64,000 bases of DNA from the NCBI RefSeq assembly GCF_030684315.1, contig NC_081389.1:22276648-22340647 (forward strand), in the 5' to 3' direction. This document shows positions 6,765-58,770 of the stretch, one piece after another; within the stretch, counting starts at the first letter, position 1; each line of letters starts with the position of its first letter. The DNA is from Stegostoma tigrinum (lineage: Eukaryota). Below the pieces are notes generated by a model. That model worked only from the letters and a program-made list of their open reading frames with translations. It had not been told where the DNA came from and searched no databases. The position numbers were made by a program, and so were the translations under genes.

Positions 6765-7150
6765 TCAACTGAAAACAAAAGATGCTGGAGATCTCGGAGG
6801 TCAGGCAGCATCCATGGAGAGACAGAGAGAGCTAATGTTTCGAGTATAGATGACTCTTCATCAGAGCTGAAATGAAGTGTGGAGGGGACAGCTTTATGCT
6901 ATAGAGGGGGCGGGGGGGGGGACGTGCTGGGGGAGAAAGGATATTAACAGAACAGACTAAGTGGTCAGAATGTGAACAATGGTGTGTCTCATTGCCAGAC
7001 TGGAAAGAGCAGACAGTCCCACTGGAACAGGGGGAAGGGAGAGAGGACATGGTGACAGAGAATGTTACAAGCAAAGTTAAAACAGAAGGAATGGGCTCAC
7101 AGTTCGGAGGGGTTGAAATCAAAATATTGAGCCCAGAAGGTTGTAAAGTG
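6765..7150 (-). mobile_element. Penelope-like element 3' fragment with hammerhead-like core
   Basis: Shares pLTR sequence with other copies; minus-strand CUGAUGA-AGAGU-loop-ACUC-GAAA-CAUU at 6834-6864. Confidence 0.65.
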
Positions 7151-13357: not shown

Positions 13358-14018
13358 TTATTTTTCCTCTTTAGGGTTATTTAAGGAGTCCACGTTGTTA
13401 ACCCTATACAGAAAGTCGCCTTCCTGGTCATAAAACTCACAACCCTTCTGTACAACTTTAATTTGGTTTTCAGACCCATTTGCGCTGAACGCCTGCAAAT
13501 CCTCATCAGTCTCTGGGATACCCAGTGGTTGTTCCCCATCAGACATCCTGCTGGTTTCGTTGTATTCTTCCCTCTCAGCACAAGCAGCCACGTTTTTTCC
13601 AAATCCGACTTTCATTACATCAGCATTGCTCTGAGATTGGCGCTTCTGGTAGACATTCTGTTGGACAAGATCCATTCTGCCACGTTCCTTTCCAATGGCT
13701 TTGTGCACTCTGCCATTTAGGTTAGATTGTGCAGGAAGTGTTACTGTGTCCCACAAGAGTCTGGGCCGGACACCGTGATCTGTGATTGGTTTAGATTCAA
13801 TCAGTGCTTTTACATTTGGAGAACTGGCAGTCAGCTGCTTTGCTCCCTGTAGGAGAGTCAGAGTCACTCCTTGAACATTTGTATCCTGCTTCATTCTTCT
13901 CTTTAATGAAGGGGTAAATTTGCTTCTCAGTACTCTCAAGACAACATCTTCACTCACTGAAAATCCCTCTGCCAGCTGTGCCACACTCCACTCTTCTGGA
14001 GACTGTGCCCTCAAAAAC
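13358..14018 (-). CDS. NGRN: NGRN (neugrin) exon 3, terminal
   Basis: tttcag acceptor; FLRAQSPEEWSVAQLAEGFSVSEDVVLRVLRSKFTP matches the neugrin core, with C-terminal VVQKGCEFYDQEGDFLYRV; stop at 13358-13360. Confidence 0.94.
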
Positions 14019-14077
14019 CTGAAACACGTTAGAAATCAAATTAATTAACATTAAAACCAGAGACCCAAGTAATTTTC

Positions 14078-15260: not shown

Positions 15261-18113
15261 TAACTATCGCTGCAGTAGTCAGTGTGAGTTAATGTAATAG
15301 TTATTGAGGTAAACTAATGCTCCAGTAGTCAGTGAGTTAATGTAATAGTTATTGAGCATTAACTAATGCTGCAATAGTTACTGAGCTAATGTAATAGTTA
15401 TTGAGAGTAAACTAACGCTCCAGTAGTCAGTGTGAGTTAATGTAATGGTTATTGAGAGTAAACTAACGCTGCAGTAGTCAGTCTGAGCTAATGTAATGGT
15501 TATTGAGAGTAAACTAACGCTGCAGTAGTCAGTGTGAGTTAATGTAATAGTTATTGAGCGTAAACTAACGCTGCAGTAGTCAGTGCGAGTTAATGTAATA
15601 GTTATTGAGAGTAAATTAACGCTGTAGTCAGTGTGAGTTAATGTAATAGTTATTGAGCGTAAACTAACGCTGCAGTAGTCAGTGCGAGTTAATGTAATAG
15701 TTAATGAGAGTAAACTAACGCTGCAGTAGTCAGTGCGAGTTAATGTAATGGTTATTGAGAGTAAACTAACGCTGCAGTAGTCAGTCTGAGCTAATGTAAT
15801 GGTTATTGAGAGTAAACTAACGCTGCAGTAGTCAGTGTGAGTTAATGTAATAGTTAATGAGAGTAAACTAACGGTGCAGTAGTCAGTGCGAGTTAATGTA
15901 ATGGTTATTGAGAGTAAACTAATGCTGCAGTAGTCAGTGTGAGTTAATGTAATAGTTAATGAGAGTAAACTAACGGTGCAGTAGTCAGTGCGAGTTAATG
16001 TAATGGTTATTGAGAGTAAACTAATGCTGCAGTAGTCAGTGTGAGTTAATGTAATGGTTATTGAGAGTAAACTAACGGTGCAGTAGTCAGTGTGAGCTAA
16101 TGTAATAGTTATTGAGAGTAAACTAATGCTGCAGTAGTCAGTGCGAGTTAATGTAATGGTTATTGAGAGTAAACTAATGCTGCAGTAGTCAGTGTGAGTT
16201 AATGTAATAGTTAATGAGAGTAAACTAACGGTGCAGTAGTCAGTGCGAGTTAATGTAATGGTTATTGAGAGTAAACTAACGCTGCAGTAGTCAGTGCGAG
16301 TTAATGTAATGGTTATTGAGAGTAAACTAACGGTGCAGTAGTCAGTGTGAGCTAATGTAATAGTTATTGAGAGTAAACTAATGCTGCAGTAGTCAGTGCG
16401 AGTTAATGTAATGGTTATTGAGAGTAAACTAACGGTGCAGTAGTCAGTGCGAGTTAATGTAATAGTTAATGAGAGTAAACTAACGGTGCAGTAGTCAGTG
16501 CGAGTTAATGTAATGGTTATTGAGAGTAAACTAACGCTGCAGTAGTCAGTGCGAGTTAATGTAATGGTTATTGAGAGTAAACTAACGCTGCAGTAGTCAG
16601 TGTGAGTTAATGTAATAGTTAATGAGAGTAAACTAACGCTGCAGTAGTCAGTGTGAGTTAATGTAATGGTTATTGAGGGTAAACTAACGCTGCAGTAGTC
16701 AGTGTGAGTTAATGTAATGGTTATTGAGAGTAAACTAACGGTGCAGTAGTCAGTGCGAGTTAATGTAATGGTTATTGAGAGTAAACTAACGCTGCAGTAG
16801 TCAGTGCGAGTTAATGTAATAGTTAATGAGAGTAAACTAACGCTGCAGTAGTCAGTGCGAGTTAATGTAATGGTTATTGAGAGTAAACTAACGCTGCAGT
16901 AGTCAGTCTGAGTTAATGTAATGGTTAATGAGAGTAAACTAACGCTTCAGTAGTCAGTCTGAGTTAATGTAATAGTTATTGAGAGTAAACTAACGCTGCA
17001 GTAGTCAGTGCGAGTTAATGTAATGGTTATTGAGAGTAAACTAACGCTGCAGTAGTCAGTGCGAGTTAATGTAATGGTTAATGAGAGTAAACTAACGCTG
17101 CAGTAGTCAGTCTGAGTTAATGTAATGGTTATTGAGAGTAAACTAACGCTGCAGTAGTCAGTGTGAGTTAATGTAATGGTTATTGAGAGTAAACTAACGC
17201 TGCAGTAGTCAGTCTGAGTTAATGTAATAGTTATTGAGCGTTAACTAATGCTGCAGTAGTCAGTGTGAGTTAGTGTAATAGTTAATGAGAGTAAACTAAC
17301 GCTGCAGTAGTCAGTGCGAGTTAATGTAATGGTTATTGAGAGTAAACTAACGCTGCAGTAGTCAGTCTGAGTTAATGTAATGGTTATTGAGAGTAAACTA
17401 ACGCTGCAGTAGTCAGTGCGAGTTAATGTAATGGTTATTGAGAGTAAACTAACGCTGCAGTAGTCAGTGCGAGTTAATGTAATGGTTAATGAGAGTAAAC
17501 TAATGCTGCAGTAGTCAGTGTGAGTTAATGTAATGGTTAATGAGAGTAAACTAACGCTGCAGTAGTCAGTCTGAGTTAATGTAATGGTTATTGAGAGTAA
17601 ACTAACGCTGCAGTAGTCAGTGCGAGTTAATGTAATGGTTATTGAGAGTAAACTAACGCTGCAGTAGTCAGTGTGAGTTAATGTAATGGTTAATGAGAGT
17701 AAACTAACGGTGCAGTAGTCAGTGCGAGTTAATGTAATGGTTATTGAGAGTAAACTAACGCTGCAGTAGTCAGTGCGAGTTAATGTAATGGTTATTGAGA
17801 GTAAACTAATGCTGCAGTAGTCAGTGCGAGTTAATGTAATAGTTAATGAGAGTAAACTAACGCTGCAGTAGTCAGTGTGAGTTAATGTAATGGTTATTGA
17901 GAGTAAACTAACGGTGCAGTAGTCAGTGCGAGTTAATGTAATGGTTATTGAGAGTAAACTAACGCTGCAGTAGTCAGTCTGAGTTAATGTAATAGTTATT
18001 GAGCGTTAACTAATGCTGCAGTAGTCAGTGTGAGTTAGTGTAATAGTTAATGAGAGTAAACTAACGGTGCAGTAGTCAGTGCGAGTTAATGTAATAGTTA
18101 ATGAGAGTTAACG
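15261..18113. repeat. 51-bp minisatellite, about 56 copies, in NGRN intron 1
   Basis: Unit GCTGCAGTAGTCAGT(GC/GT/CT)GAGTTAATGTAAT(G/A)GTTA(T/A)TGAGAGTAAACTAA(C/T); period 51 (e.g. 15771 to 15822); no unique spacers. Confidence 0.97.
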
Positions 18114-18129
18114 AATGAACTCTTTTCAC

Positions 18130-18266
18130 CTGATTATTTCCTCCAACTCCTTCCCTTCGGCCACGGGCTCCCTGCCGCCTCTGGAGCCCCTCAGGGATCG
18201 GGCGGCCTGGACCTGGGCCGGAGGCTGGAGCCGGACGATTCTCTGAGCCGCCGCCGAGAGCCACAT
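18130..18266 (-). CDS. NGRN: NGRN exon 1
   Basis: ATG at 18266; MWLSAAAQRIVRLQPPAQVQAARSLRGSRGGREPVAEGKELEEII(R) has an Arg/Ala-rich, mitochondrial-presequence-like start; AG|GTGAAA donor. Exons total 909 nt (302 aa plus stop). Confidence 0.85.
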
Positions 18267-18410
18267 GAAGCTCCGCCGCGATCCCGCCCCGGCGGTAACA
18301 GCGTGAAGGCTCCACACCTTGGTATTCCGGTGGTAATAGTCATCGCTGAAGAATCGTTCCGCCTTTCGCTTGGGCCTAGTCTGGGAGCTGCGGCTGAAGC
18401 TCGACTTGAA
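18130..18410 (-). promoter_or_regulatory. CpG-island promoter of NGRN
   Basis: Dense CpG; ACCGGAA ETS-type site on minus at about 18325-18331. Confidence 0.6.
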
Positions 18411-20214
18411 AAATGACCAATTTACTTGGAGATATTTCTAATTTGTTGATATTTCTAATCAAACTGTTCATAAATGTTCTGTTACAGTCCTGGAGGAGAT
18501 AGGATTTGACTCCAAACCTCCTGGCTCAGAGAAAGGGACACTACCATTGCAGTACACCAGCCCTGCCTCTTCATTTGTTCATTCGTACACATGTCTGTCT
18601 TCCTGCTCTGAAGCTGTTGATTCTTGCTGGGGCCAAAAACTCAACCAACTAGCTATCCTTCTCCAGTGTCTGTACGATATTGGACCATGTAGTTCCAACA
18701 AAGCCCCTTGTCCTGATTTATCCAAAGACTAGAGAAAGAGAATTGCATTTGTATAGCACTTATATTGACCACCAAACATCCACTGCGCCTCACAGTTTAG
18801 TGAACTACTTTTGAAATGCTGTTGAAAATGCTATAGCTAGTTTGTGTTAACAAGAAATTTCCACAATGTGAAACAAAAACAGAAATTGCTGGAGAAAGTC
18901 TGTCAGAGAGAAAATAGAGTTGACATTTCATGTCTAGTGACCCTTCTTCAGAAGTCCACAATATATTAATGACCAGATAAAGATGGTGATTTGGGATAAA
19001 TGGAGGACTCATCCCTTCTTCTTTTACTTGCACTACGGCATCTTAAAAATTTCATTCTAGACAGGCGGTTGTGGGGTAGCTCGTTTACCTCGCCCAAAAC
19101 ACTTCGGATGACCAGACATCCCAATGTGGCTAGACAGTCCCTGCCCAGAAGGAAAAACAAGTGAAACTTGAGAATGACACACACTGGCCTCACCTGTCTT
19201 GCACACCTGCAGTACAACTGGCACGTTAATTTCCAAATATTACAGTCCAACTTTTTGGGCAGCTTTTCATTCAATGTTTCAGTGTCCTGATAATTATCTC
19301 TCAAAGTTCAATGCAGTTCCTATCTTTTTATTTTTGCAATCTGTGTGAAATTTTGTCCTCCGTTCTGTAAGCAGCGGACCTGTATTCCTTCTCCCCCTCC
19401 TGCCTACTTGGCACCTACATCTCCTTTACTGAAGTTGCTTTTTAAATGATCTGAGGAATTGGGTCACCAGTTCTGGCTGGACATTTTCTGGGAGATGTCA
19501 CCACATAAACCCCCATGAGAGTGCCCATCCTTCTGCCTCCTGTTATTGGCCATCAAAATGTCATACATTATGAGCCCCATAGCTTTTCAATATGCCCCGT
19601 TTTGACTTTTGAAACTTTGGTCAGTACCACACTGGAGTGCCAAACTGGAATTTTGTGCATAAGATCAGGGACTTCAATTCAAAAATCTAGTGATTTAGTG
19701 CAAGCCATGGCTAACATCATGTCCATTAATATGAATTTCAAGCAGCTTATTGTCTTCTTTATCATCACGGTGGGTGTTGAAGTTAACCGTATCCAACAAG
19801 CCCCTGGTCAGCTAACTCGCCACAAACTCAGGAATGAGAAGTTCAGTTCTGAGGGCAGATTGAAGAAGTCCGGACTGTTCCCCTTTGAGAAAGGAAAGCT
19901 GAGAGGAGATTTAATAGAGGTTTTCGAAATCATGAGTGGGTTGGACTGAGGAGAAGCTGTTCCTGCTCGTAAAAGATTCAAAGTGATGTGCAAAAGAAGC
20001 AAGGGCTACAGAGGAAAAAACAGTTTCATACAGCAAGCGGTTACGGTGCTGAGTGTACTACCTGAAAACATGATGGAGTCTGGTTGAATTGAGGCACTCA
20101 AAAGGCATTGGATGATTATTTCGATAGAATTGGCATGCAAAGATATGGGGAAAGGCAGGGGATTAGCAACTAAATAATAGAATTGAGGGGTAATTGAAAT
20201 TAGATAATTGAGGG

Positions 20215-20560: not shown

Positions 20561-21604
20561 AAAAAAAAGAACCAATGTGGGCACAATAGGCCAAATGGCC
20601 TCCTACTACACCATAACAATTCTGTGACTGGCCATGAACTCTGCCCCACTTTATAAGGTGCCAAATTTCAATACATTCTGGAAGTCCATTTCAGGAATCT
20701 CAAAGTCTCAATGTAACTCAATATCATACCAGTTTCATTCAAAAGCCCAGTTTAAGCTGAAAATTTAACTAACACTTTACTGCAATGCTGAACCTATTCT
20801 GAATTGCTGCTGAGAACATTCATGTGGATGTAATGTTAATGCTTTCAATTATCCTTGACTTCAAAAGACCAATTGTGCTTTTCAAACAGCAGCAGAGTGT
20901 TCTGCAGAGATCTCTGACCAGCATTTATCTCGTAAATTATTACCAATAAAATGTTTAAACAGCCAATAATCACATCTGTGGCACCGTTTGGCTGCAATGT
21001 TTATAAACACAATAATCTTAAATGTGCAAATATTAATTCGCCTTAAAAATACTTCGGAATATAGATCTCCTATATAAACACAAACGGCCACACCAGAACC
21101 TGAATTATCCTTTATTCATTCACGGGATGAGAGCATTGCTGGTTAGGCAGCATTTATTGCACATCCCTAATTGGCCAGAGGGCAGTTAAGCGTCAACCAC
21201 ATTGTTGCAGGTCTGGAGTCACATGTAGTCCAGGCCATGTAAGATTGGCAGTTTCCTTCCCTAAAGGACATTAGTGAACCAGATAGGTTTTTCTGACAAT
21301 CAACAACAGACTCACAGTCATCATTAGATTCTGAATTCCAGATATTTATTGAATTCAACTTCTACCATCTGCCGTGGCAGGATTTGAACCTGGGTCCGCA
21401 GAACATTATCTGGGTCTCTGAATTAACAGTCCAGCAATAATACCACTAAATCATTTCCTCCCTGCAAGCCTGCATGGTTTGGTTTAGGATTGGAATGAAA
21501 GAATTATACAGGACCTTCCAGAAAGATTTCAAAGCTCTTTACAACCAATAATTGTGAAGATTCTGGATATGAGTTTCCTCGCTGAGCTGGAAGGTTAGTT
21601 TTCA

Positions 21605-21638
21605 GACGTTTCGTCACCATTCTAGGTAACATCATCAG
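21605..21638 (-). ncRNA. Putative minimal type I hammerhead ribozyme core
   Basis: CUGAUGA-UGUUACC-UAGAAU-GGUGAC-GAAA-C-GUC: intact boxes, 6-bp stem II, palindromic ACGU, GUC cleavage triplet. Confidence 0.7.
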
Positions 21639-21738
21639 TGAGCCCCCGACGAAGCGCTGGTGTTATGTCCCGCTTTCTATTTATCTAAACAGATAAATAG
21701 AAAGCGGGACATAATACCAGTGCTTCGTCAGAGGCTCA

Positions 21739-21772
21739 CTGATGATGTTACCTAGAATGGTGACGAAACATC
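21739..21772 (+). ncRNA. Putative minimal hammerhead ribozyme core (mirror copy)
   Basis: CUGAUGA-UGUUACC-UAGAAU-GGUGAC-GAAA-C-AUC; ACGU is changed to ACAU, a CpG-type transition. Confidence 0.55.
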
Positions 21773-23422
21773 TGAAAACTAACCTTCCAGCTCAGCGTGC
21801 AATCTCACATCCAGAACCTCAACCTGCGCTACAAATCTTCTCAAAATTCACTAATTGTGAAGATTAGCCAAACGTAGGTGATGCAACATTTAATTTGCAT
21901 AAGATTACAGATACTGGGGAATTAGGGGGTAGTATTAACATCTACATAACCTTGATGGACAACTATTGGCCTGAACAACAGAACAGGAGCAAAGTTTCTT
22001 TGAATCATACTGTGGGATCTTTTACATCCACCCGGGAGGGATCATTCCACAGTTGTTCTCTTAGTTGATAGCAAATTTTAATGCGCGGATCTTTCAAAAG
22101 CAATGGGAATGTTTTGCTCAAGTCTCTGCAGTAGGTTGACTGGCTAACACCATACTATCCACCATTTGTATCAGAGATAATGGGAACTGCAGATGCTGGA
22201 GATTCCAAGATATATCCACCATTTGTAGTCCACTTTCCTTTCTACCTTGTTCCTCAATGTAGATGTCATGCTCCATAGATTTTCAATCACAGTCTGTTTG
22301 TCCATGAGGTATATGACTGAGCTGAGCTAAAGATCTCCCTACATTCCCTTTATGTTTTAAAGGAAGGAAGAGAATATTATTCAGAGACAGACAATATTCC
22401 AAACCCTAATGGAACCAAACTCCTCAATGTTATATTTTCTAAACAAACTGTGTCTGCTCAGACTCCAGAGGCAACCATTTATGATGAATGAGTTTACCAT
22501 GTGTTAGAACATCAGAGTGACAGACCTTGAAACATTGTACACTTTATTCTTTATTGCCTTCATGAGTAACCTCAATAACCAGAGAGTTAATTTTGGTTTC
22601 AGTGAACTTTTGCAGTGAGAAATCCATTTTTTTTCCTGAGGACATGTGTATGTTTGGGTTATTGAGAGGGATAAATATTCATTCTTCCTTATGACCTACT
22701 ATATATGTAAACTTATGTTATCTTCATTAAATATGTTTCGTTTTGATAATGAACAAAACATTTTACCTTGAATATGATACCAGGTTGCTAGATGTTTTCA
22801 TTACAACTTGATATAGATAAGGTATTTAATTTAATTTAATTAGCCACCTCAGTAACTGGAAAAAGTATTTTTATTGATGTTGTGACTCATGGAATAGTGA
22901 GACTAGAGTGATGGTGCATTCCTCCAGCTTCAGTCTTGACACACAAGAATAATTTTATCTTTACATGATTACAGGTTTCAAACTCAAACAAAAAGAGAAT
23001 ATCACATTCTATCTGTACATCGAAGGTGCTTTCAATAATTTGTTTGAAGTTTTGCTGTGCAAACTGTTCCCAAAAAATTAAAATTTATCTTCACAGCGTA
23101 ACAACATTCATACGGCAATTTCCAATTCCTGGGAACCATGACACACCTACAGATGACAGTGGAAAGGGTTTCATCTGTGCCATAATGCCATTGGTCTTGC
23201 TTGGTTTGAAACTGGTTCATGAAGTAATCAGTATATATAGAGTCAACAATGCAGCATGGATATCATTGACTGCAGAGTCCAGAAAATTGCATCCCATCAG
23301 CAGCTTTAATCCCAGTCAAAATTTTTCTTTAACAACATACTGGCTTGTTTTCTTTGTCATTTTGTTTGGGGATTTGGATTATGAACGCTGTATCAATTTC
23401 TGCAACAGGTGACTAATATACT

Positions 23423-23522: not shown

Positions 23523-26500
23523 CTGTGAAGAATGCAGAGAAAGCAATCTTTAAAGCTTCAATGTAACTGTTGGCTTTGAATTAAAACTTTCACAGGTTCT
23601 GCCTACTGGTATGTTTTGAACTTTGAGTCAGTATTGCATCTCCTACTGTAATAGTGTAGTTTTCTCCATTTCTGATTGAATATGATCTTGAGTTGCTGTG
23701 AGAACATTCTCCCACCAGTCTGCATGGAAACTGTGTTGAAATTACTCATGCAGATGGAGAAATAATAAAGGTGAATGAAAAAGCAGCAAAATCTTTGCTT
23801 TTTCTGCACGTGCACGTTTTCTGTGCTCACTTGGTGATTTAATTATATTCTTTTAATTTGGCATCAGTGAAGGGATAAAAACTCCAGACATGGGTTTAAA
23901 TGTTAAAAAAAAAGGGAAGACTGACAGTAAGTCAGTATGGAAAGAACACCATTGTCACATCCTTGATCAAGGGCCTGGGATGAGAATCACTACAGCAATG
24001 GAAGGAGAAACACAGAATCCCTACAGTATGGAGGCAGGATGTGGCCCATTGAGCTCATACCGATCCCCTGAAGAGCATCCCATCCACACCCACCCCCTCT
24101 ATCCCATCCCTCCAGCCCTGCACTTCCTACGGCTGATCCACCTCGCCTGCCCATCTCTGGATACTATGGGTAACTTATCATGGCCAATCCACCTCGTCCC
24201 CCCCCCAACAATCTTTGGACCGTGGGAGAAAACTGGTTGCACCCAGAAGAGACCCAGCACCCCGATGAAATCTGGGCTCCGAACCCATGTCCAAGTTGCG
24301 TCAATCCCATAACGCTACTTCTGAAATGCAAATAGCTTCACTGGCCAGGATGTGGGTTTGGTGCTGAGTAAGTGGCTTTAAGCTGCTGCAGAAGGTGGGA
24401 TTGCCTCTTTACTATGAACAACAGAGGGGCTGTCATGCTGCAAACTGCCTCTGCCTTGCTGATTAGAGCAGGCAGCTCCTCTGGGGGATCATAGCCACAG
24501 ATGAGATGGGTAGGAGCACTAAAACAGAAGTTGCTGGAAAAGCTCAGCAAGTCTGCCAGCATCTGTGAAGAAAAAAAGTCAGAGTTTTAACATTTCGGGT
24601 CTGGTGATACTTCCTCAGTACTGCAGGTCTGGGTAGGAGCACTGCTCATAGTGTCGCAGCATAAATTTTAAAACCAATGACATGCAGTTTACCATGACCT
24701 CTTGATGAACCCAACATAAGACTGTTCGGGCTTGTCAGAAAAAAATTAAAATTCCAATCTCAAACGAGAGGCCCTTAACAAGCTCCTGACATGAACTGGT
24801 GGTGACCATGTTTCCGGCTCCTTCCCCACCAGCCAATCCTTTGAAAATTTGAAACTGTCCTGGAGCCACAGGAATTGCAAAACCACCTCCATGGGTTTGA
24901 TTTTTAATTCCTGCCCAGCCCAAGTCCTGGATCCGTTCAGAATGTGGCCTAGGATGTTCCAAAGTTTGAAGCTCAGTAAAGGTAAAGAGTGACAGTTATG
25001 GAAGAGACTCTCAGGGTAGTTGGTATTCGGAGGCAAGGTACAGTTTGTGCAACAGAATATTTAGGTTGCAAAGAGAAACTCACAACAACAATCTCTATTT
25101 ATAAAGAACTTTTAATATAATAAAACTGTGCCATGTAGCTTCCCAAGAATATCAGTGAGCGACAATGTGCTTTTAGTCAAAGTAAAAAAAAACAGAAACA
25201 GCAATATCTACATAAACAGTAAGAGGCCATTCAGCCCCTCAAATTCCACCATTCATTAAGATCATTTTAAGGGTTGTGGTGAGCAGGCAGGTAAATGGAG
25301 CTGAGTCTATGAAAGACCATCATGCTTTTATTGAATGGTGGAGTAGGCTCAAGGGGCCAGATGACCCACTCATACTCCTATTTCTTATGTTCTTGTCAAG
25401 GCTGATTGGAATCATAACTAAATTCACTTGCCTTGGATCTATTACCCTCATGGGCAGTCAAAAGCAGTTTTGTGGATACATATCTCATGTCAGAATATAT
25501 TACATTTCATTGATTTAACTTTTTTTGGTGAACTTATGCTGGGGCCAATTTCAGCAGTAACAACAGAGATCAGCCAACTCAACACAGGCAAGAATCAAAC
25601 TGCAACCGTTGAATGGAATTTTAATGGTTTTGTTGTTACATTGATGATGATAAAACTTCAGGGACAGAGAAAGGTACAAGTAACCGGATCTATGTAATAT
25701 CTTGTTTACAGCTGTGTAAGGGTTTCAGCTACCATAGGAGGGAAAAAAATTATGTAATGCTAAAACAGACAATCCATGTGAAGAAAAAATACTTTAGCAA
25801 GACAAAGTTTAAAAGAAACCCATATCATTTTCATTTATTTGGCTTAATTTGTTCAACTCTTAGCAGAATGCCTGAACATTCGTCAACCTTTGGCAAACTG
25901 TCCATCTTCCCTATTCAACCATGGATTGTGTAATGGAACCTGTTCAGACCCAGTACGGTGTCTCTGACTTCCTGCTGCCAACATGGAAATACATTTGTCT
26001 CTCTTCTTTGTTCATGCTCAGGTCCATTTATTTTTTTCCACCACATCCCACCCTGGGGAGAAGGAGTTTAAAAACATAAACTTCACAAGGTGGTGAAACC
26101 GTTCTCCAGCTTGAAGAGGTGGAAAGGGAATCCAGCAATCCGCTTCTCGAAATTAGTTCAGCCGTCTAACAAGGAAGAATTGGTGAAATTTGTTACTAAC
26201 TACTTTGCTGAAAGCACTGCCTCCAAATGGGACACAACTCCATGGATGCTAACCCCAGATTGTCATTCTGCCATACCCTGATAATCTCAGTGGTCTATCC
26301 TTGTCCATCCCTCAAGGAATCAATGTAGATTTTGATCTTTCTCTTTTTGCTATAAAAGTACTTTCTATTTCTACTATTCTCTTTTCAATCATGATTTCAG
26401 CTGAATGAAGAGTAGCCTTATTTTCATAGATCCCAATAATTCTCTTCATCCTCATGCATGCTGTAAGCATTAACTTAGAAATTCAATGTTATTTATATTT

Positions 26501-27000
26501 TGTCTCTGTAGATGACCTAACTGTTTGGCATCTTCTTCCCACATTCCCCCTTTTTGCACAATTTCATTTGTGCTAGAAAGAACAAGAAGGGTCTAGGCCT
26601 GAAATGTCAGCTTTCCAGCTCCTCTGATGCTGCTTGGCCTGCTGTGTTTATCCAGCTGTACACCTTGTTATCTCCCATTTATGATCTGTTTTAGATTAAT
26701 TATGGTTAACCATTGTGCCTACTTCAAAGATTACGTTATTTTCATAAAGCTCACCTTTTCTGTAATTTGGAACTCCCTGTCGGTTTCCAGGATCATTTGG
26801 TCCTACCAAACCGTATGATGTGATCAGCACCGCCCAGGTGTTCTGACATCAAATACAGGATCACCTCTAAATACCTGACTCATTACAAATCCAACCCTGG
26901 ATAAAAGCAGAGAGCTGCAGGACATCCAGCAGCAACTGCCATTTTTAAACCAAAAGGTTTGTGAACAGGCGATAGTCTCATGGAAGAATTTTAGATTTAC

Positions 27001-27259
27001 CTGTTGATATTGGACTGGAATAAGCTCAGTATATTTGCTCGTCTTGTTAAGTGAGCTCGTTGATTGATGGGGGCCCGGGCTGACACCACCGTCAGCCCAT
27101 GGCTTGCAGGGTTGATTACATTCATCTTCATGTTCCACATATTGGAGCCACTGCCTGTGGTGCTCACTCGTGCTGTACTCATTGGTATGTTGAGGCTGGT
27201 TCCACAATCTGATGGCATGCTCTTGCTTTGGTACCCTTTTGACTCTGTCAGGGAGTTTT
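27001..27259 (-). CDS. TTLL13: TTLL13-like C-terminal exon (ends at an AG|GTAAAT donor, or reads through to TAA at 26997-26999)
   Basis: tttctgtacag acceptor; phase 1 fits the upstream exon; reads ENSLTESKGYQ...GLTVVSARAPINQRAHLTRRANILSLFQSNINR. Confidence 0.6.
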
Positions 27260-29354
27260 CTGTACAGAAACATATTGCAGTCAATGGATTCCATTCTCAC
27301 CCTCCCTACCCCATCAATCCCCTTGCCCCTGATGTACCCTGGCTGCCCTTAGTGAAAGACTACCAATACATTTTTTTATATTACTTTTATTTCTAACAAA
27401 GACAGAACAGTAATGTGTACAGAATTGGTGTTCTCCAAAAGCATGTCATATTTTCCTCACTGAAGATGATAACATTGGAGAAGGGTGTATTTCAATATCG
27501 AAGATACTTTACTGTAAAGATAGGAACATATCAGTAAATAAGTTGGGTGGATAATATTGAATTTAAAGTTATGAAGATTGAAACACACAGGATTTAAAAC
27601 AGGAATTTCACCACACTGACGTGTAGTGTAGGAACTGGGAATTGCTGCAATATAAATAGTAATATGCTACAATAAACAGGGTGCATCAAAGGTTGTTCCT
27701 AACAAAGCTATGGCCTGGGGAAGGCAATGACGGGAAGTAAAAGTACGGTATAAAAATCCATAATTCATCTTTCCTGGTTTGCAATCAGGTCAAATAACTG
27801 ATTGGTCATAAAACACCAGAAGAAAGCAGGTCAGAGAGAAAATGGTGTATGAAAGTTGCAATATTTTCACTCAGCCAGAAAGGCAATGCAGTGTGTAAAT
27901 GGAAATTGAGAAGCCATTTTCACAGCTCCTTATTAAATCTACACAGGTCAGCTCCAGATGAGAGGCTGATGTGCTCTATGTTCAATGAGTCTTTAAGATT
28001 AATGTTTTAATTGCACTAAACAAAAGTGAATCACAGACCTGCTACTGACTGCAGCTTTTAGAATTGTTAAATTCTTTGTTAAAAGAGTAAAGTTATTAAA
28101 ACGGTAAAAACTTAGCCAGCGTCTTGTACCTTCCTTTGTGCATGTCTAGGCAAAAAGCATTAGCAACAAAGTCTGCCCTTGTTCTGGTTTAATAATCAAA
28201 CGCGTGCCAACAGGGGTCACTAGGATGATATTTAGAGCAGGACATTTCTTCTCTTAATCCAATGCCCTTTCCAGAGGAAAGACTGGATTACTTGAGATTT
28301 GGGGAGGTGATGGCAAAAAGGTGATCTTGTCAAAATCATCAGGGGTCTGGATAGTGTGAATAGGGAGAAATTGTTGCTTCTCATAAAAGGATTAAGAATC
28401 AGAGGCCATGGCTTTAAAATGTTTTGCAAGGTAAGAAAAATGATTTCACGCAGCTAATAATTTAAGGTGTGGAATGCACTCCCTCAAGTATGGTGGAGGC
28501 AGGTTCAATTGAGGCATTCATGGAGCATTGGATGGTTATTTAAACAGAAACAACACGCAGAGTTATGGGGAAAGGCAGGACATTGTCACTAAGTTAAAAT
28601 GCTTAGAGAGCCAATACATACACAAAGGGCCAAATGGCCTCCTTCTGCACCATGAAATCCTGTGATTTTAATATTCCAGCTGGGGTTACCATAGATAGGG
28701 TCTCTCTGACCTTCATAATTTAATTGCTATTAATAGATATAGAAAGTAGGAACAATGTGCACCACAGCAAACTTGGGGCTTAGAATGAAGTTAAGAAGTA
28801 TTGGCAGTAGTAGTACTGTATACTATTCATTTACCTGTTTCATGTTCAATAATTGTTCTCTAGTAGCTGAGCTGTGATCTGACAATGTAATGAATTTCGC
28901 TAAGCCAGAGTTCAATGGAAAGAGTTCTCTCTTTGAACGCTTACCTATTTATTGGGTGGAAAGAGGCACATCAGGGCCACTTATAACAGTAGCTTCTTGC
29001 ACTGAATCCAAGGACCATATTCAATAATATAACACAGTTACAGGGTAGCGATTAAGAGCAGGCTGGGCCCTTAGTGATTTCTGGGTAACAGAGGGCAACT
29101 CCCCATATACCTACCAGCACTGCCGCTAAAAACAGCTAATTCAATGCTGAAACAGATTTTACGCAGGAACCTAGTAAGGATGACTATAACCTACACCACG
29201 CAGTGCACTCTCACACAAAGATACTGACTGGGCACTTTGGAACAGAAGTGCATTCTGAAGCATATAACACAATTGCACACTTCACACCCCACACAGACAC
29301 ATACACAAACCCATAAAAACAAACACCTTGAGAATAACAGATCATTTTTCTTAC

Positions 29355-51261: not shown

Positions 51262-51485
51262 GATAGTAGGAACTGCAGATGCTGGAGAATCTGACATAAC
51301 AAGGTGTAGAGCTGGATGAACACAGAAGGCCAAACAGTATCAGAGGAGCAGGATGCTTCGGGCCTAGACCCTTCTTCAGAAGAATGCCTGAAGCAGGGTC
51401 TAGGCCCGAAGGGTCAGCCTTCCTGCTCCTCTGATGCTGCTTAGCCTGCTGTGTTCATCCAGCTCTACACCTGGTTATCTCAGAT
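51262..51485. mobile_element. Penelope pLTR inverted pair (fold-back) with degenerate hammerhead cores
   Basis: Arms at about 51289-51379 and 51388-51485; each contains CTGAAG(A/C)AGGGTCTAGGCCCGAA. Confidence 0.75.
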
Positions 51486-55630: not shown

Positions 55631-56390
55631 ATGTTGTGCCTTAGCAGATGTTCAATTTTAACTTCTATCCTGATACAATGGACTAATCGACATTGCAACA
55701 TCTGTATCTATTGAATATTTTCAAGATGTTACAATTGAACAAGGAGCAATTCCTATCTGTCAATGAAAGCCAGTTGAAAATGTCAGGGCTTCACTGACTG
55801 GCATCGTTGAAATGGGAACACTGCCTGACTAGCACAACCGGCTTTGGTTACTGAATATGCTAGCAGAAAATAATGACTATGGCACCAGATTTATGACAGA
55901 AGTAGAGCTCCTGTCAGATTGAAAAGGCTTTGAATTTAAGTACCAAGGGTTGTTATAAACCTGCCAGTTGTGAAATGATGCTTGGGCCCATAAGTTTCAA
56001 ACCAGTGAATGACATAGAGAGACAAGAGGAACTACGGATGTCCGTCAGAGAGTGGAGACAGCTAAAGGAAGAATTTATGAGAGGTATTCAAAATCATTAA
56101 GGTCTTTGACAGTGTAAATGAGAAGCAAGTAAAGTCAGTGGCATGAGAATCACAAACCACTAAGGAAATTGGCAAAAGAACCAGAAGCAGCATGAAATTT
56201 TTTTTGTTAGGCTGCAAGTTGTTATGAAATGGAATACGCTGCCTGAAGGGATGGTGGATTCAAAGATCAAAGATCATTCACTGGGTCAAAATGTATGGAT
56301 TCAAAAAAGAAATAGATGAAATTTCTTTTTCTAAATTGCAGAATCGGAGTGGTCAAGCACTACCTTAACCCATCATCATGACAAGGACTC

Positions 56391-56531
56391 AATAAATGTG
56401 GAGCTGGAAAAGCACAGCCGGTCAGACAGCATTCGAGGAGCAGGCAAGTTAACATTTCGAGCCGGAACTTTGACCTTCCTGCTCCTTGAATGCTGTCCGA
56501 CTAGCGGTGCTTTTCCAGATCCACATTTATT
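56391..56531. mobile_element. Short Penelope-derived fold-back
   Basis: AATAAATGTGGAGCTGGAAAAGCAC...GAGGAGCAGG is mirrored by CCTGCTCCTT...GTGCTTTTCCAGATCCACATTTATT. Confidence 0.7.
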
Positions 56532-56644
56532 GATCTTAATTTCTACTGACAACATTTCTAGAACCTTTTTGAAATATTTGCTGCATGTGACAAAAGATTG
56601 TAGGTTTACTGCTAGGTTCTTCCTTCCAACCTGTTAAAATGTAC

Positions 56645-58524: not shown

Positions 58525-58770
58525 GAAACAAAAGATAATGAATTGCAGATGCTGGAAATCTGAAACAAAAACAAAAACTGCTGGAAAATCTCAGCAGGTC
58601 TGGCAGCGTCTGTGGACAGAAACCAAAGTTAACTTTTTGGGTCCTCAAAACTTCAGTTCTGTTCTTCAGTTCTGAAGAAGGGTGACTGGACCCAAAACAT
58701 TGACTCTGCTTTCTCGCCACAGATGCTGCCTGACCTGCGGCGTTTCTCCAGTAATTTCTGTTTTTGTTTC
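58525..58770. mobile_element. Penelope pLTR inverted pair
   Basis: Arms at about 58562-58643 and 58688-58770; core remnant CTGAAGAAGGGTGACTGGACCCAAAACATT at 58672-58701. Confidence 0.7.

What the first reader, a model, noticed from the sequence alone, without database searches (positions are those of the whole stretch)
21549..21865. Fold-back retroelement carrying a hammerhead ribozyme core on each strand
Seen: two 126-bp inverted arms with a 4-nt loop, a 14-bp TSD, and in each arm CUGAUGA + stem II (GUUACC/GGUGAC) + GAAA + C(G/A)UC, with UCA/UGA and GGRGG/CCUUCC able to form stem I. Established: Penelope-like elements carry minimal type I hammerheads whose short palindromic (ACGU) stem III works as a dimer, and they form inverted pLTR structures. 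Inference: this ORF-less 290-bp unit was inserted as a single event. It sits between the TTLL13 3' end and the NGRN promoter with its most intact core on the gene-sense strand, so read-through RNA could either self-cleave or be locked into a long dsRNA hairpin.
Basis: partly seen in the sequence, partly recalled or inferred. Interest (0 to 1): 0.72.

Follow-up and report, generated by a model that had tools for sequence, protein, structure and literature searches.

The report
Fold-back stump of shark Penelope retrotransposon
This hairpin is one of thousands of short mirror-image stumps left by a known kind of jumping gene (Penelope) in a shark genome; its two ribozyme motifs are predicted to be locked shut, and the family's fixed ends suggest the element likely copies its RNA onto both cut DNA strands.

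Summary
In detail: 129-nt arms (92% complementary), an exact 14-bp duplication and two minimal hammerhead motifs. It is a 5'-truncated, head-to-head insertion of an abundant Penelope-like family (4,820 exact matches to its tail). The right arm is the pseudo-LTR plus the first 36 codons of the RT/GIY-YIG ORF; the left arm is the same sequence inverted, without the ~37-nt tail. Of 100 copies picked by tail only, 56 have this layout, with varying centres and their own duplications, so it is not a unit family. The layout and opposite-strand hammerheads are in print. Self-cleavage here is unlikely: either strand transcribes the antisense arm first (66-70 kcal/mol predicted penalty), the + core is mutated, and the element lies 5.1 kb past TTLL13's last coding exon. 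The family's ends fit priming from both nicked strands at two RT start sites better than simple snap-back. A Tx1-like LINE (2,334 exact 3'-end matches) lands in this hammerhead at 30 of 30 junctions read; this copy's two sites are empty. The scan noted the layout, the two-strand model and the Tx1 targeting earlier on other DNA.

The parts
21549..21562 (.). Left copy of the 14-bp target-site duplication
   Evidence: exact repeat; its last 2 nt also match the element antisense
21563..21686 (-). Inverted, tail-less arm: family positions -40 to -163 counted from the tail end
   Evidence: 4 differences from the family majority
21605..21638 (-). Minimal type I hammerhead with intact core and palindromic ACGU; predicted cut between 21605 and 21604
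21685..21690 (.). Head-to-head junction: 2-nt overlap (21685-21686) plus AAAC, which is right-arm family sequence
21685..21853 (+). Direct arm: Penelope pseudo-LTR with tail, family positions -169 to -1
   Evidence: 10 differences from the family majority
21739..21772 (+). Second hammerhead motif, stem III palindrome broken by a CpG-type G>A at 21770
   Evidence: (dimer duplex +2.8 vs -3.1 kcal/mol)
21745..21852 (+). First 36 codons of the Penelope ORF (ATG at the start of stem II)
   Evidence: the frame continues through the tail in near-full-length copy L236
21817..21853 (+). Tail of about 37 nt, on the direct arm only
   Evidence: tail defined in PMC3846280 and PMC11167929
21852..21865 (.). 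Right copy of the target-site duplication (first 2 nt shared with the element end)
21758..21760 (+). Empty landing site of the Tx1-like LINE (loop II / stem II edge); the mirror site on the - arm is at about 21617-21619
   Evidence: junction positions mapped onto the window; no LINE sequence here
26997..27260 (-). Context: most downstream TTLL13/TTLL6-like coding exon (another isoform ends near 28835)
   Evidence: tblastn of P0125, P0127, P0122, P0123; ORF end
18130..18513 (-). Context: likely NGRN first exon (identity inferred)
   Evidence: RNA-guess contigs of related species cover it and stop at a GT donor; no Pfam hit; likeness to the NGRN N-terminus is recalled
13358..14035 (-). Context: NGRN (Neugrin) main coding exon
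   Evidence: PF06413

Best explanation
This is a 5'-truncated, head-to-head insertion of an abundant Penelope-like retrotransposon, likely made when both strands of a staggered 14-bp cut primed reverse transcription at two start sites about 37 nt apart on uncleaved element RNA, and its hammerhead motifs are passengers predicted to be locked in the hairpin. Shown: family membership, arm limits, TSD, uncleaved hammerhead in both arms, fixed outer ends and variable centres. Inferred: one nick primes at the tail end (-1) and the other at about -38; the two same-polarity cDNAs stop near each other and are joined through a short overlap; usually both read one RNA or one source locus, sometimes two. 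The copy has since picked up CpG-type changes and has no shown role for TTLL13 or NGRN.
For: Family: >=40 near-full-length matches, 3,342 candidates; 4,820 exact tail matches, control 0; upstream of longer copies lies RT (PF00078, E 4e-9) and a GIY-YIG-like end; L236 runs pLTR-ATG-tail-RT-EN. First 100 tail copies of contig C1: 56 inverted, 27 plain, 17 with a Tx1-like LINE. Inverted arms start at -37 to -41 in 41 of 56; TSD >=10 nt in 51 of 56 vs 1 of 56 with swapped flanks. The tail-less arm is the longer in 33 copies, the tailed arm in 14, equal in 9 (P=0.008), 10 by over 100 nt; copying of the tailed cDNA alone predicts the opposite. Arm lengths are coupled: 26 of 56 within 20 nt vs 6.1 on shuffling, max 16. 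At 11 family-polymorphic sites in 86 inverted copies, arms share the minor allele 62 times and differ 35 times; about 5 expected from one template, about 119 from independent ones. Direct insertions can also end at about -37 to -39 with a TSD (L220, L210, by eye). In vitro the anole element nicks and extends both strands, starts RT at two sites bounding the tail, is predicted to be a dimer and does not need hammerhead cleavage (PMC11167929); its distal start is 111-118 nt into the ORF, the end here is +109.
Against: Arm ends come from BLAST alignments and are approximate. Later deletion at palindrome centres could also make the tail-less arm longer, and later gene conversion could create both shared and discordant alleles. 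The 11 sites were picked after seeing the data, are partly linked, one is a CpG position, and 30 of the 86 copies were chosen by likeness to the query. This copy alone (tailed arm 6 nt longer, 2-nt overlap, 4-nt loop) fits snap-back equally well; its arms differ at only one diagnostic site both cover (-51). The GIY-YIG Pfam score is below the curated cut-off (E 0.007). No biochemical data exist for this family.
Confidence: 0.6

Rival explanations
1. Same family and same passenger status, but the inversion arises by snap-back: one cDNA folds on itself and is copied back to the tail boundary (or self-priming on an antisense template, as Arkhipova et al. 2013 proposed).
For: Near-symmetric junctions are enriched (26 of 56); six copies stop at a 6-bp palindrome at -132; arms are mostly concordant; this copy has a 2-nt overlap and 4-nt loop; proposed in PMC3846280.
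Against: The tail-less arm is longer in 33 vs 14 copies and cannot supply the tail; 35 discordant diagnostic calls vs about 5 expected, several copies discordant at two or more sites (L030, L055, L102, L105); no reason for a fixed stop at -38, which is an RT start in vitro. A hybrid (both strands primed, one cDNA snaps back) is not excluded.
Confidence: 0.3
2. A non-autonomous fold-back element that is copied as a 290-bp unit (MITE-like or retrozyme-like).
For: 9 of 56 inverted copies have both arms ending in the same -154 to -180 zone as this copy; the top 30 matches are of similar size.
Against: The centres of those 30 differ in sequence and length; total lengths run from 91 to 1,763 nt; a unit transcript is a near-perfect hairpin; the hammerheads are on opposite strands, not in tandem.
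Confidence: 0.05
3. The copy acts on its neighbours: TTLL13 read-through is cut by the - strand hammerhead or forms a regulatory dsRNA upstream of NGRN.
For: Intact core on the gene-sense strand; stem II forms with probability 0.99 in the isolated arm; any read-through would give a 126-bp dsRNA.
Against: Antisense arm is transcribed first; 66-70 kcal/mol penalty; stem I is weak even in the isolated arm (0.0-0.11). Seven AATAAA hexamers lie between the last coding exon and the element. Among the 100 tail copies only 67 of 126 arms spanning the core keep it intact, so an intact core is about a coin toss. PLE minimal hammerheads cleave poorly or need protein.
Confidence: 0.05

Closest known systems
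Inverted-pLTR insertions of endonuclease-bearing Penelope-like elements (Adineta Pen2a_Av, PMC3846280, passages and Discussion read; overview PMC8557442, passages)
   Same: pLTR holding the ORF start, inverted 5' copy shorter by about 37 bp, optional 30-40-bp tail at one end, TSD, head-to-head polarity
   Different: Here both arms are cut so short that no RT is left; TSD 14 bp rather than 8-10; thousands of copies allow statistics on the ends
Poseidon of Anolis carolinensis (PAc), PMC11167929, parts 1-2 of 4 of the text read
   Same: Hammerhead in the pLTR with the ATG at stem II; element end about 110 nt into the ORF; tail bounded by two RT start sites; uncleaved RNA used as template
   Different: In what I read the authors do not link both-strand extension to the inverted arm; their supplements were not read
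Minimal hammerheads (min-HHR) of metazoan PLEs, PMC4209133, parts 1-2 of 4 read
   Same: Core, bulge after A9, G10.1-C11.1, palindromic 15.2-16.2, no helix III; pairs on opposite strands 100-700 bp apart were reported in Schistosoma
   Different: Sharks are not named in the parts read; helix II is 6 bp here; activity untested
Twin priming of LINE-1 (recalled, not read)
   Same: Both target strands prime cDNA and leave an inversion inside one TSD
   Different: In L1 the two pieces copy adjacent parts of the RNA from a variable internal site; here both arms copy the same part from two fixed sites
Target-specific Tx1-clade LINEs (Tx1L in Tx1D; Tx1-Mar; Keno; PMC4494074, passages), for the side finding
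   Same: APE-RT LINE with fixed landing site in another repeat, tandem pile-ups
   Different: Target is a Penelope hammerhead; 'Penelope' does not occur in that paper

Membership tests
EN+ Penelope-like element insertion | Arm is a pLTR that contains the start of an RT + C-terminal GIY-YIG ORF | tested here: met
EN+ Penelope-like element insertion | Inverted 5'-truncated copy, head to head | tested here: met
   this copy; 56 of 100 tail copies
EN+ Penelope-like element insertion | 30-40-bp tail at one end only | tested here: met
   inverted arm starts at -37 to -41 in 41 of 56
EN+ Penelope-like element insertion | Target-site duplication around the whole unit | tested here: met
   14 bp exact; 51 of 56 vs 1 of 56 control
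Penelope/Poseidon clade rather than Neptune/Nematis | No extra Zn-finger-like linker between RT and EN; RT phylogeny | tested here: inconclusive
   none seen by eye in the translations; no tree built
Minimal type I hammerhead of PLEs | Core CUGANGA / GAAA / UH, bulge after A9, G10.1-C11.1, stem II | tested here: met
   both arms; 0 hits in 40 simulated sequences
Minimal type I hammerhead of PLEs | Palindromic 15.2-16.2 for a dimeric stem III, - strand arm | tested here: met
   ACGU; duplex -3.1 kcal/mol
Minimal type I hammerhead of PLEs | Palindromic 15.2-16.2 for a dimeric stem III, + strand arm | tested here: not met
   ACAU; duplex +2.8 kcal/mol
Minimal type I hammerhead of PLEs | Self-cleavage | not testable with these tools
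   needs an assay
Rfam hammerhead families | Covariance-model match | tested here: not met
   none at E<=10; a motif without helix III may simply fall outside these models (inference)
Retrozyme or MITE-like unit element | Same-sense tandem hammerheads, or fixed length and shared centre across copies | tested here: not met
   opposite strands; centres and lengths vary
microRNA precursor | Rfam match above the gathering score | tested here: not met
   all miRNA hits below gathering, driven by the hairpin

The most novel reading that the evidence does not exclude
Penelope's inverted ends are the product of two-site twin priming: a dimeric RT-endonuclease primes both nicked strands 37 nt apart on uncleaved RNA, the two RTs run together and stop together, and sometimes read two different RNAs. 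The thousands of shark stumps are a direct fossil record of this and give marker-level predictions for the existing in vitro system. The same hammerhead is also the exclusive landing pad of an autonomous Tx1-like LINE.
Probability: 0.5. Interest if true: 0.6.

Novelty: new member of a known kind. Interest (0 to 1): 0.33.

Why it matters
As a locus it matters little: it is one decaying stump among thousands. As a family it bears on an open question that PMC8557442 names, how Penelope-like elements form their inverted ends and tail. Fixed ends at -1 and about -38, coupled arm lengths and occasional two-allele arms turn that question into a simple two-marker test in the published in vitro system. 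The Tx1-like LINE that targets the same hammerhead adds a target that I did not find in the searches made.

Tried and rejected
Rfam scans gave only sub-threshold miRNA, snoRNA and riboswitch hits. First guess that the 5.2-kb long copies were full-length Penelopes was wrong: they are a Tx1-like LINE inside the pLTR. Expression: no RNA holder listed for this species; contigs of related species (RNA is a guess) were swamped by repeats and say nothing on this copy. Presence/absence of the insertion in other same-species runs, and editing or cleavage ends, were not obtained and stay open. Junctions at the hammerhead cut: only 3 of 89 direct and 1 of 56 inverted arms end at -78 to -84, too few to test. 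Microhomology at the inverted-arm start is >=2 nt in 32 of 63 copies, but the measure is inflated by taking the longest exact repeat, so I do not lean on it. No target-site motif stood out beyond AT-richness. That the Tx1 borrows the ribozyme to free its 5' end is disfavoured: only 2 of 26 heads keep GAAACGUC and 10 of 26 carry UGUUGA in place of UGAUGA. A look-up of earlier notes by sequence returned nothing. Paper searches for Penelope with twin priming (3 papers, none on PLE mechanism by listing) and self-priming/both strands found no statement of the two-site model; the library lacks most subscription papers and Repbase Reports, and no supplements were read.

Full report
Observation. The hairpin is as described: arms 21558-21686 and 21691-21819, 129 nt, 10 mismatches, 4 nt apart, fold z = -30, inside an exact 14-bp duplication at 21549-21562 and 21852-21865. 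A minimal-hammerhead descriptor finds 21638->21605 on the - strand with the palindromic ACGU intact and 21739-21772 on the + strand with ACAU; 40 simulated 64-kb sequences gave no hit. Rfam has no hammerhead match at E<=10.

What it is. The 317-bp stretch has at least 40 close matches and 3,342 candidates in the 3.2-Gb genome; a 34-nt piece of its tail has 4,820 exact matches, control 0. The 30 best matches share the outer ends but differ at the centre, and each has its own flanks. To avoid that search's bias I took the first 100 tail matches of contig C1. Longer copies continue upstream into the 3' end of an ORF with an RT (PF00078, E 4e-9) and a GIY-YIG-like end (E 0.007, below cut-off). L236 carries the pseudo-LTR at its 5' end: the ATG at the start of stem II opens a frame through the tail into RT and endonuclease, with two breaks. 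So the right arm is family positions -169 to -1 (pLTR plus 36 codons) and the left arm is -40 to -163 inverted; the 'loop' is right-arm sequence and the arms overlap by 2 nt. The host is a shark by the labels of the nearest TTLL13 proteins.

Family anatomy. Of the 100 copies, 56 are inverted like this one, 27 are plain truncations, 11 have a Tx1-like poly(A) and 6 a Tx1-like 5' end next to the hammerhead. Inverted arms begin at -37 to -41 in 41 of 56; 51 of 56 have a duplication of 10 nt or more with at most one mismatch, against 1 of 56 for swapped flanks; total lengths run from 91 to 1,763 nt. Exact duplications are mostly 12-13 nt (64 of 86 inverted copies had one of 10 or more). Arm ends cluster at -154 to -176 (12 of 89 direct, 11 of 56 inverted) and at -128 to -134 (9 and 6); this copy is in the first group. 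Direct arms differ from the majority by a median 3.4% (85 arms); this copy shows 10 and 4 differences, several at CpG.

How it likely formed. Three results bear on the inversion. First, the tail-less arm is longer than the tailed arm in 33 copies, shorter in 14, equal in 9 (P = 0.008). Second, arm lengths are coupled (26 of 56 within 20 nt; 6.1 expected, max 16 in 5,000 shuffles). Third, at 11 family-polymorphic sites across 86 inverted copies (56 unbiased plus 30; the 6 Tx1-headed ones left out) the arms share the minor allele 62 times and differ 35 times, against about 5 for one template and about 119 for independent templates. Frangieh et al. (PMC11167929, parts 1-2 of 4 read) show that the anole element nicks and extends both strands, starts RT at two sites that bound the tail, is predicted to dimerise and uses uncleaved RNA. 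Its distal start is 111-118 nt into the ORF; here the element ends at +109. I therefore favour priming from both nicks, at -1 and about -38, mostly on one RNA or source locus, with joining through a short overlap (0.6). Snap-back, proposed by Arkhipova et al. (PMC3846280, passages and Discussion), remains (0.3): palindrome-centre deletion and gene conversion could mimic results one and three, the sites were chosen after seeing the data, and this copy alone fits either model.

Does the ribozyme act here? Both arms hold the whole hammerhead, so the template was uncleaved. On either strand the antisense copy of the core precedes the core by 134 nt; stem II probability in the whole element is 1e-18 to 1e-22 and forcing the ribozyme fold costs 69.5 (-) or 66.2 (+) kcal/mol. 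In the isolated arm stem II forms (0.99) but stem I is weak (up to 0.11). An intact core is unremarkable: 67 of 126 arms in the 100 copies keep one. Minimal PLE hammerheads show low activity and none as monomers (PMC4209133, parts 1-2 of 4). TTLL13-like coding exons end at 27000 or 28835, with seven AATAAA hexamers on the - strand before the element; the likely NGRN first exon is 18130-18513 (identity inferred). No RNA evidence for this species was obtained.

Side finding. Eleven long copies turned out to hold a 5.3-kb LINE. Its relatives include proteins labelled TX1; no tree was built. Its 3' end has 2,334 exact matches and its 5' region 1,675. In 30 of 30 3' junctions read, the poly(A) is followed by the 3' strand of stem II (27 plain Penelope, 3 the head of the next LINE); in 30 of 30 5' ends the LINE follows a Penelope hammerhead (26) or another copy's poly(A) (4). 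In 15 full-length copies both ORFs are open in the majority sequence, and ORF2 variants shared by three or more copies have N/S ratio 0.21 against 0.87 for singletons, so it was likely autonomous. It carries a diverged Penelope-like head, mostly with a broken core. L137 and L218 invert inside the LINE between Penelope-type ends, so the composite was likely sometimes moved by Penelope. This copy's two sites are empty.

Comparison and novelty. Inverted pLTR, one-sided tail and TSD are the standard layout of endonuclease-bearing Penelope-like elements (PMC3846280; PMC8557442, passages), and opposite-strand pairs of minimal hammerheads were reported in Schistosoma. It is not a retrozyme or a unit element (bioRxiv 10.64898/2026.07.22.740005, passages). 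I found no printed statement of the two-site model or of a Tx1 targeting Penelope (PMC4494074, PMC4640811, PMC8869645, passages); supplements, subscription papers and Repbase Reports were not seen and may hold either. L1 twin priming is recalled, not read. Earlier notes of this scan, read after my own analyses, reach the same readings on other DNA and are not independent evidence.

Verdict. A real but ordinary member of a known kind; the local regulatory idea is not supported. The value lies in the family statistics, which make the origin of Penelope's inverted ends testable. Interest 0.33.

Noticed in passing
L132-L222 (G000 contig C1); e.g. L203, L204, L211, L217: A 5.3-kb Tx1-like LINE (2,334 exact 3'-end matches) sits at one site of this family's hammerhead in 30 of 30 3' and 30 of 30 5' junctions read, forms tandems, has ORF2 under purifying selection and carries a diverged Penelope-like head with a mostly broken core.
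   Followed up: partly
L137, L218, L219: Penelope-type inversions whose junction lies inside the Tx1-like LINE or whose both arms carry it; L218 and L219 have a clear TSD, L137 an imperfect one. The composite RNA was likely moved by the Penelope machinery.
   Followed up: partly
family positions -128 to -134 (L053, L059, L085, L086 and others): Arm ends pile up at a 6-bp palindrome that also lies about 30 nt downstream of a TATA-like ATAAATA; it may mark the RNA 5' end, a joining hot spot, or both.
   Followed up: partly
family positions -255 to -247 (L055, L058, L102, L105, L047, L049): Seven linked changes are a micro-inversion of about 11 nt between short inverted repeats; it differs between the two arms in 5 of the 6 copies that carry it.
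   Followed up: partly
window 6834-6864 (-), 18922-18951 (-), 24589-24618 (-): Decayed hammerhead-like motifs of other repeat families, probably other Penelope-like ends; the one at 18922-18951 is about 0.4 kb upstream of the likely NGRN first exon.
   Followed up: no
window 51289-51485, 56389-56533, 58562-58770: Three more short fold-back repeats (65-83-nt arms, 81-91% complementary) in TTLL13 introns.
   Followed up: no
window 15378-18100: A 2.7-kb low-complexity tandem array begins right after the donor of the likely NGRN first exon and gives long spurious open frames.
   Followed up: no
window 28835-28945 and 26997-27260 (-): Two alternative last coding exons of the TTLL13/TTLL6-like gene, each matched by different shark proteins.
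   Followed up: partly
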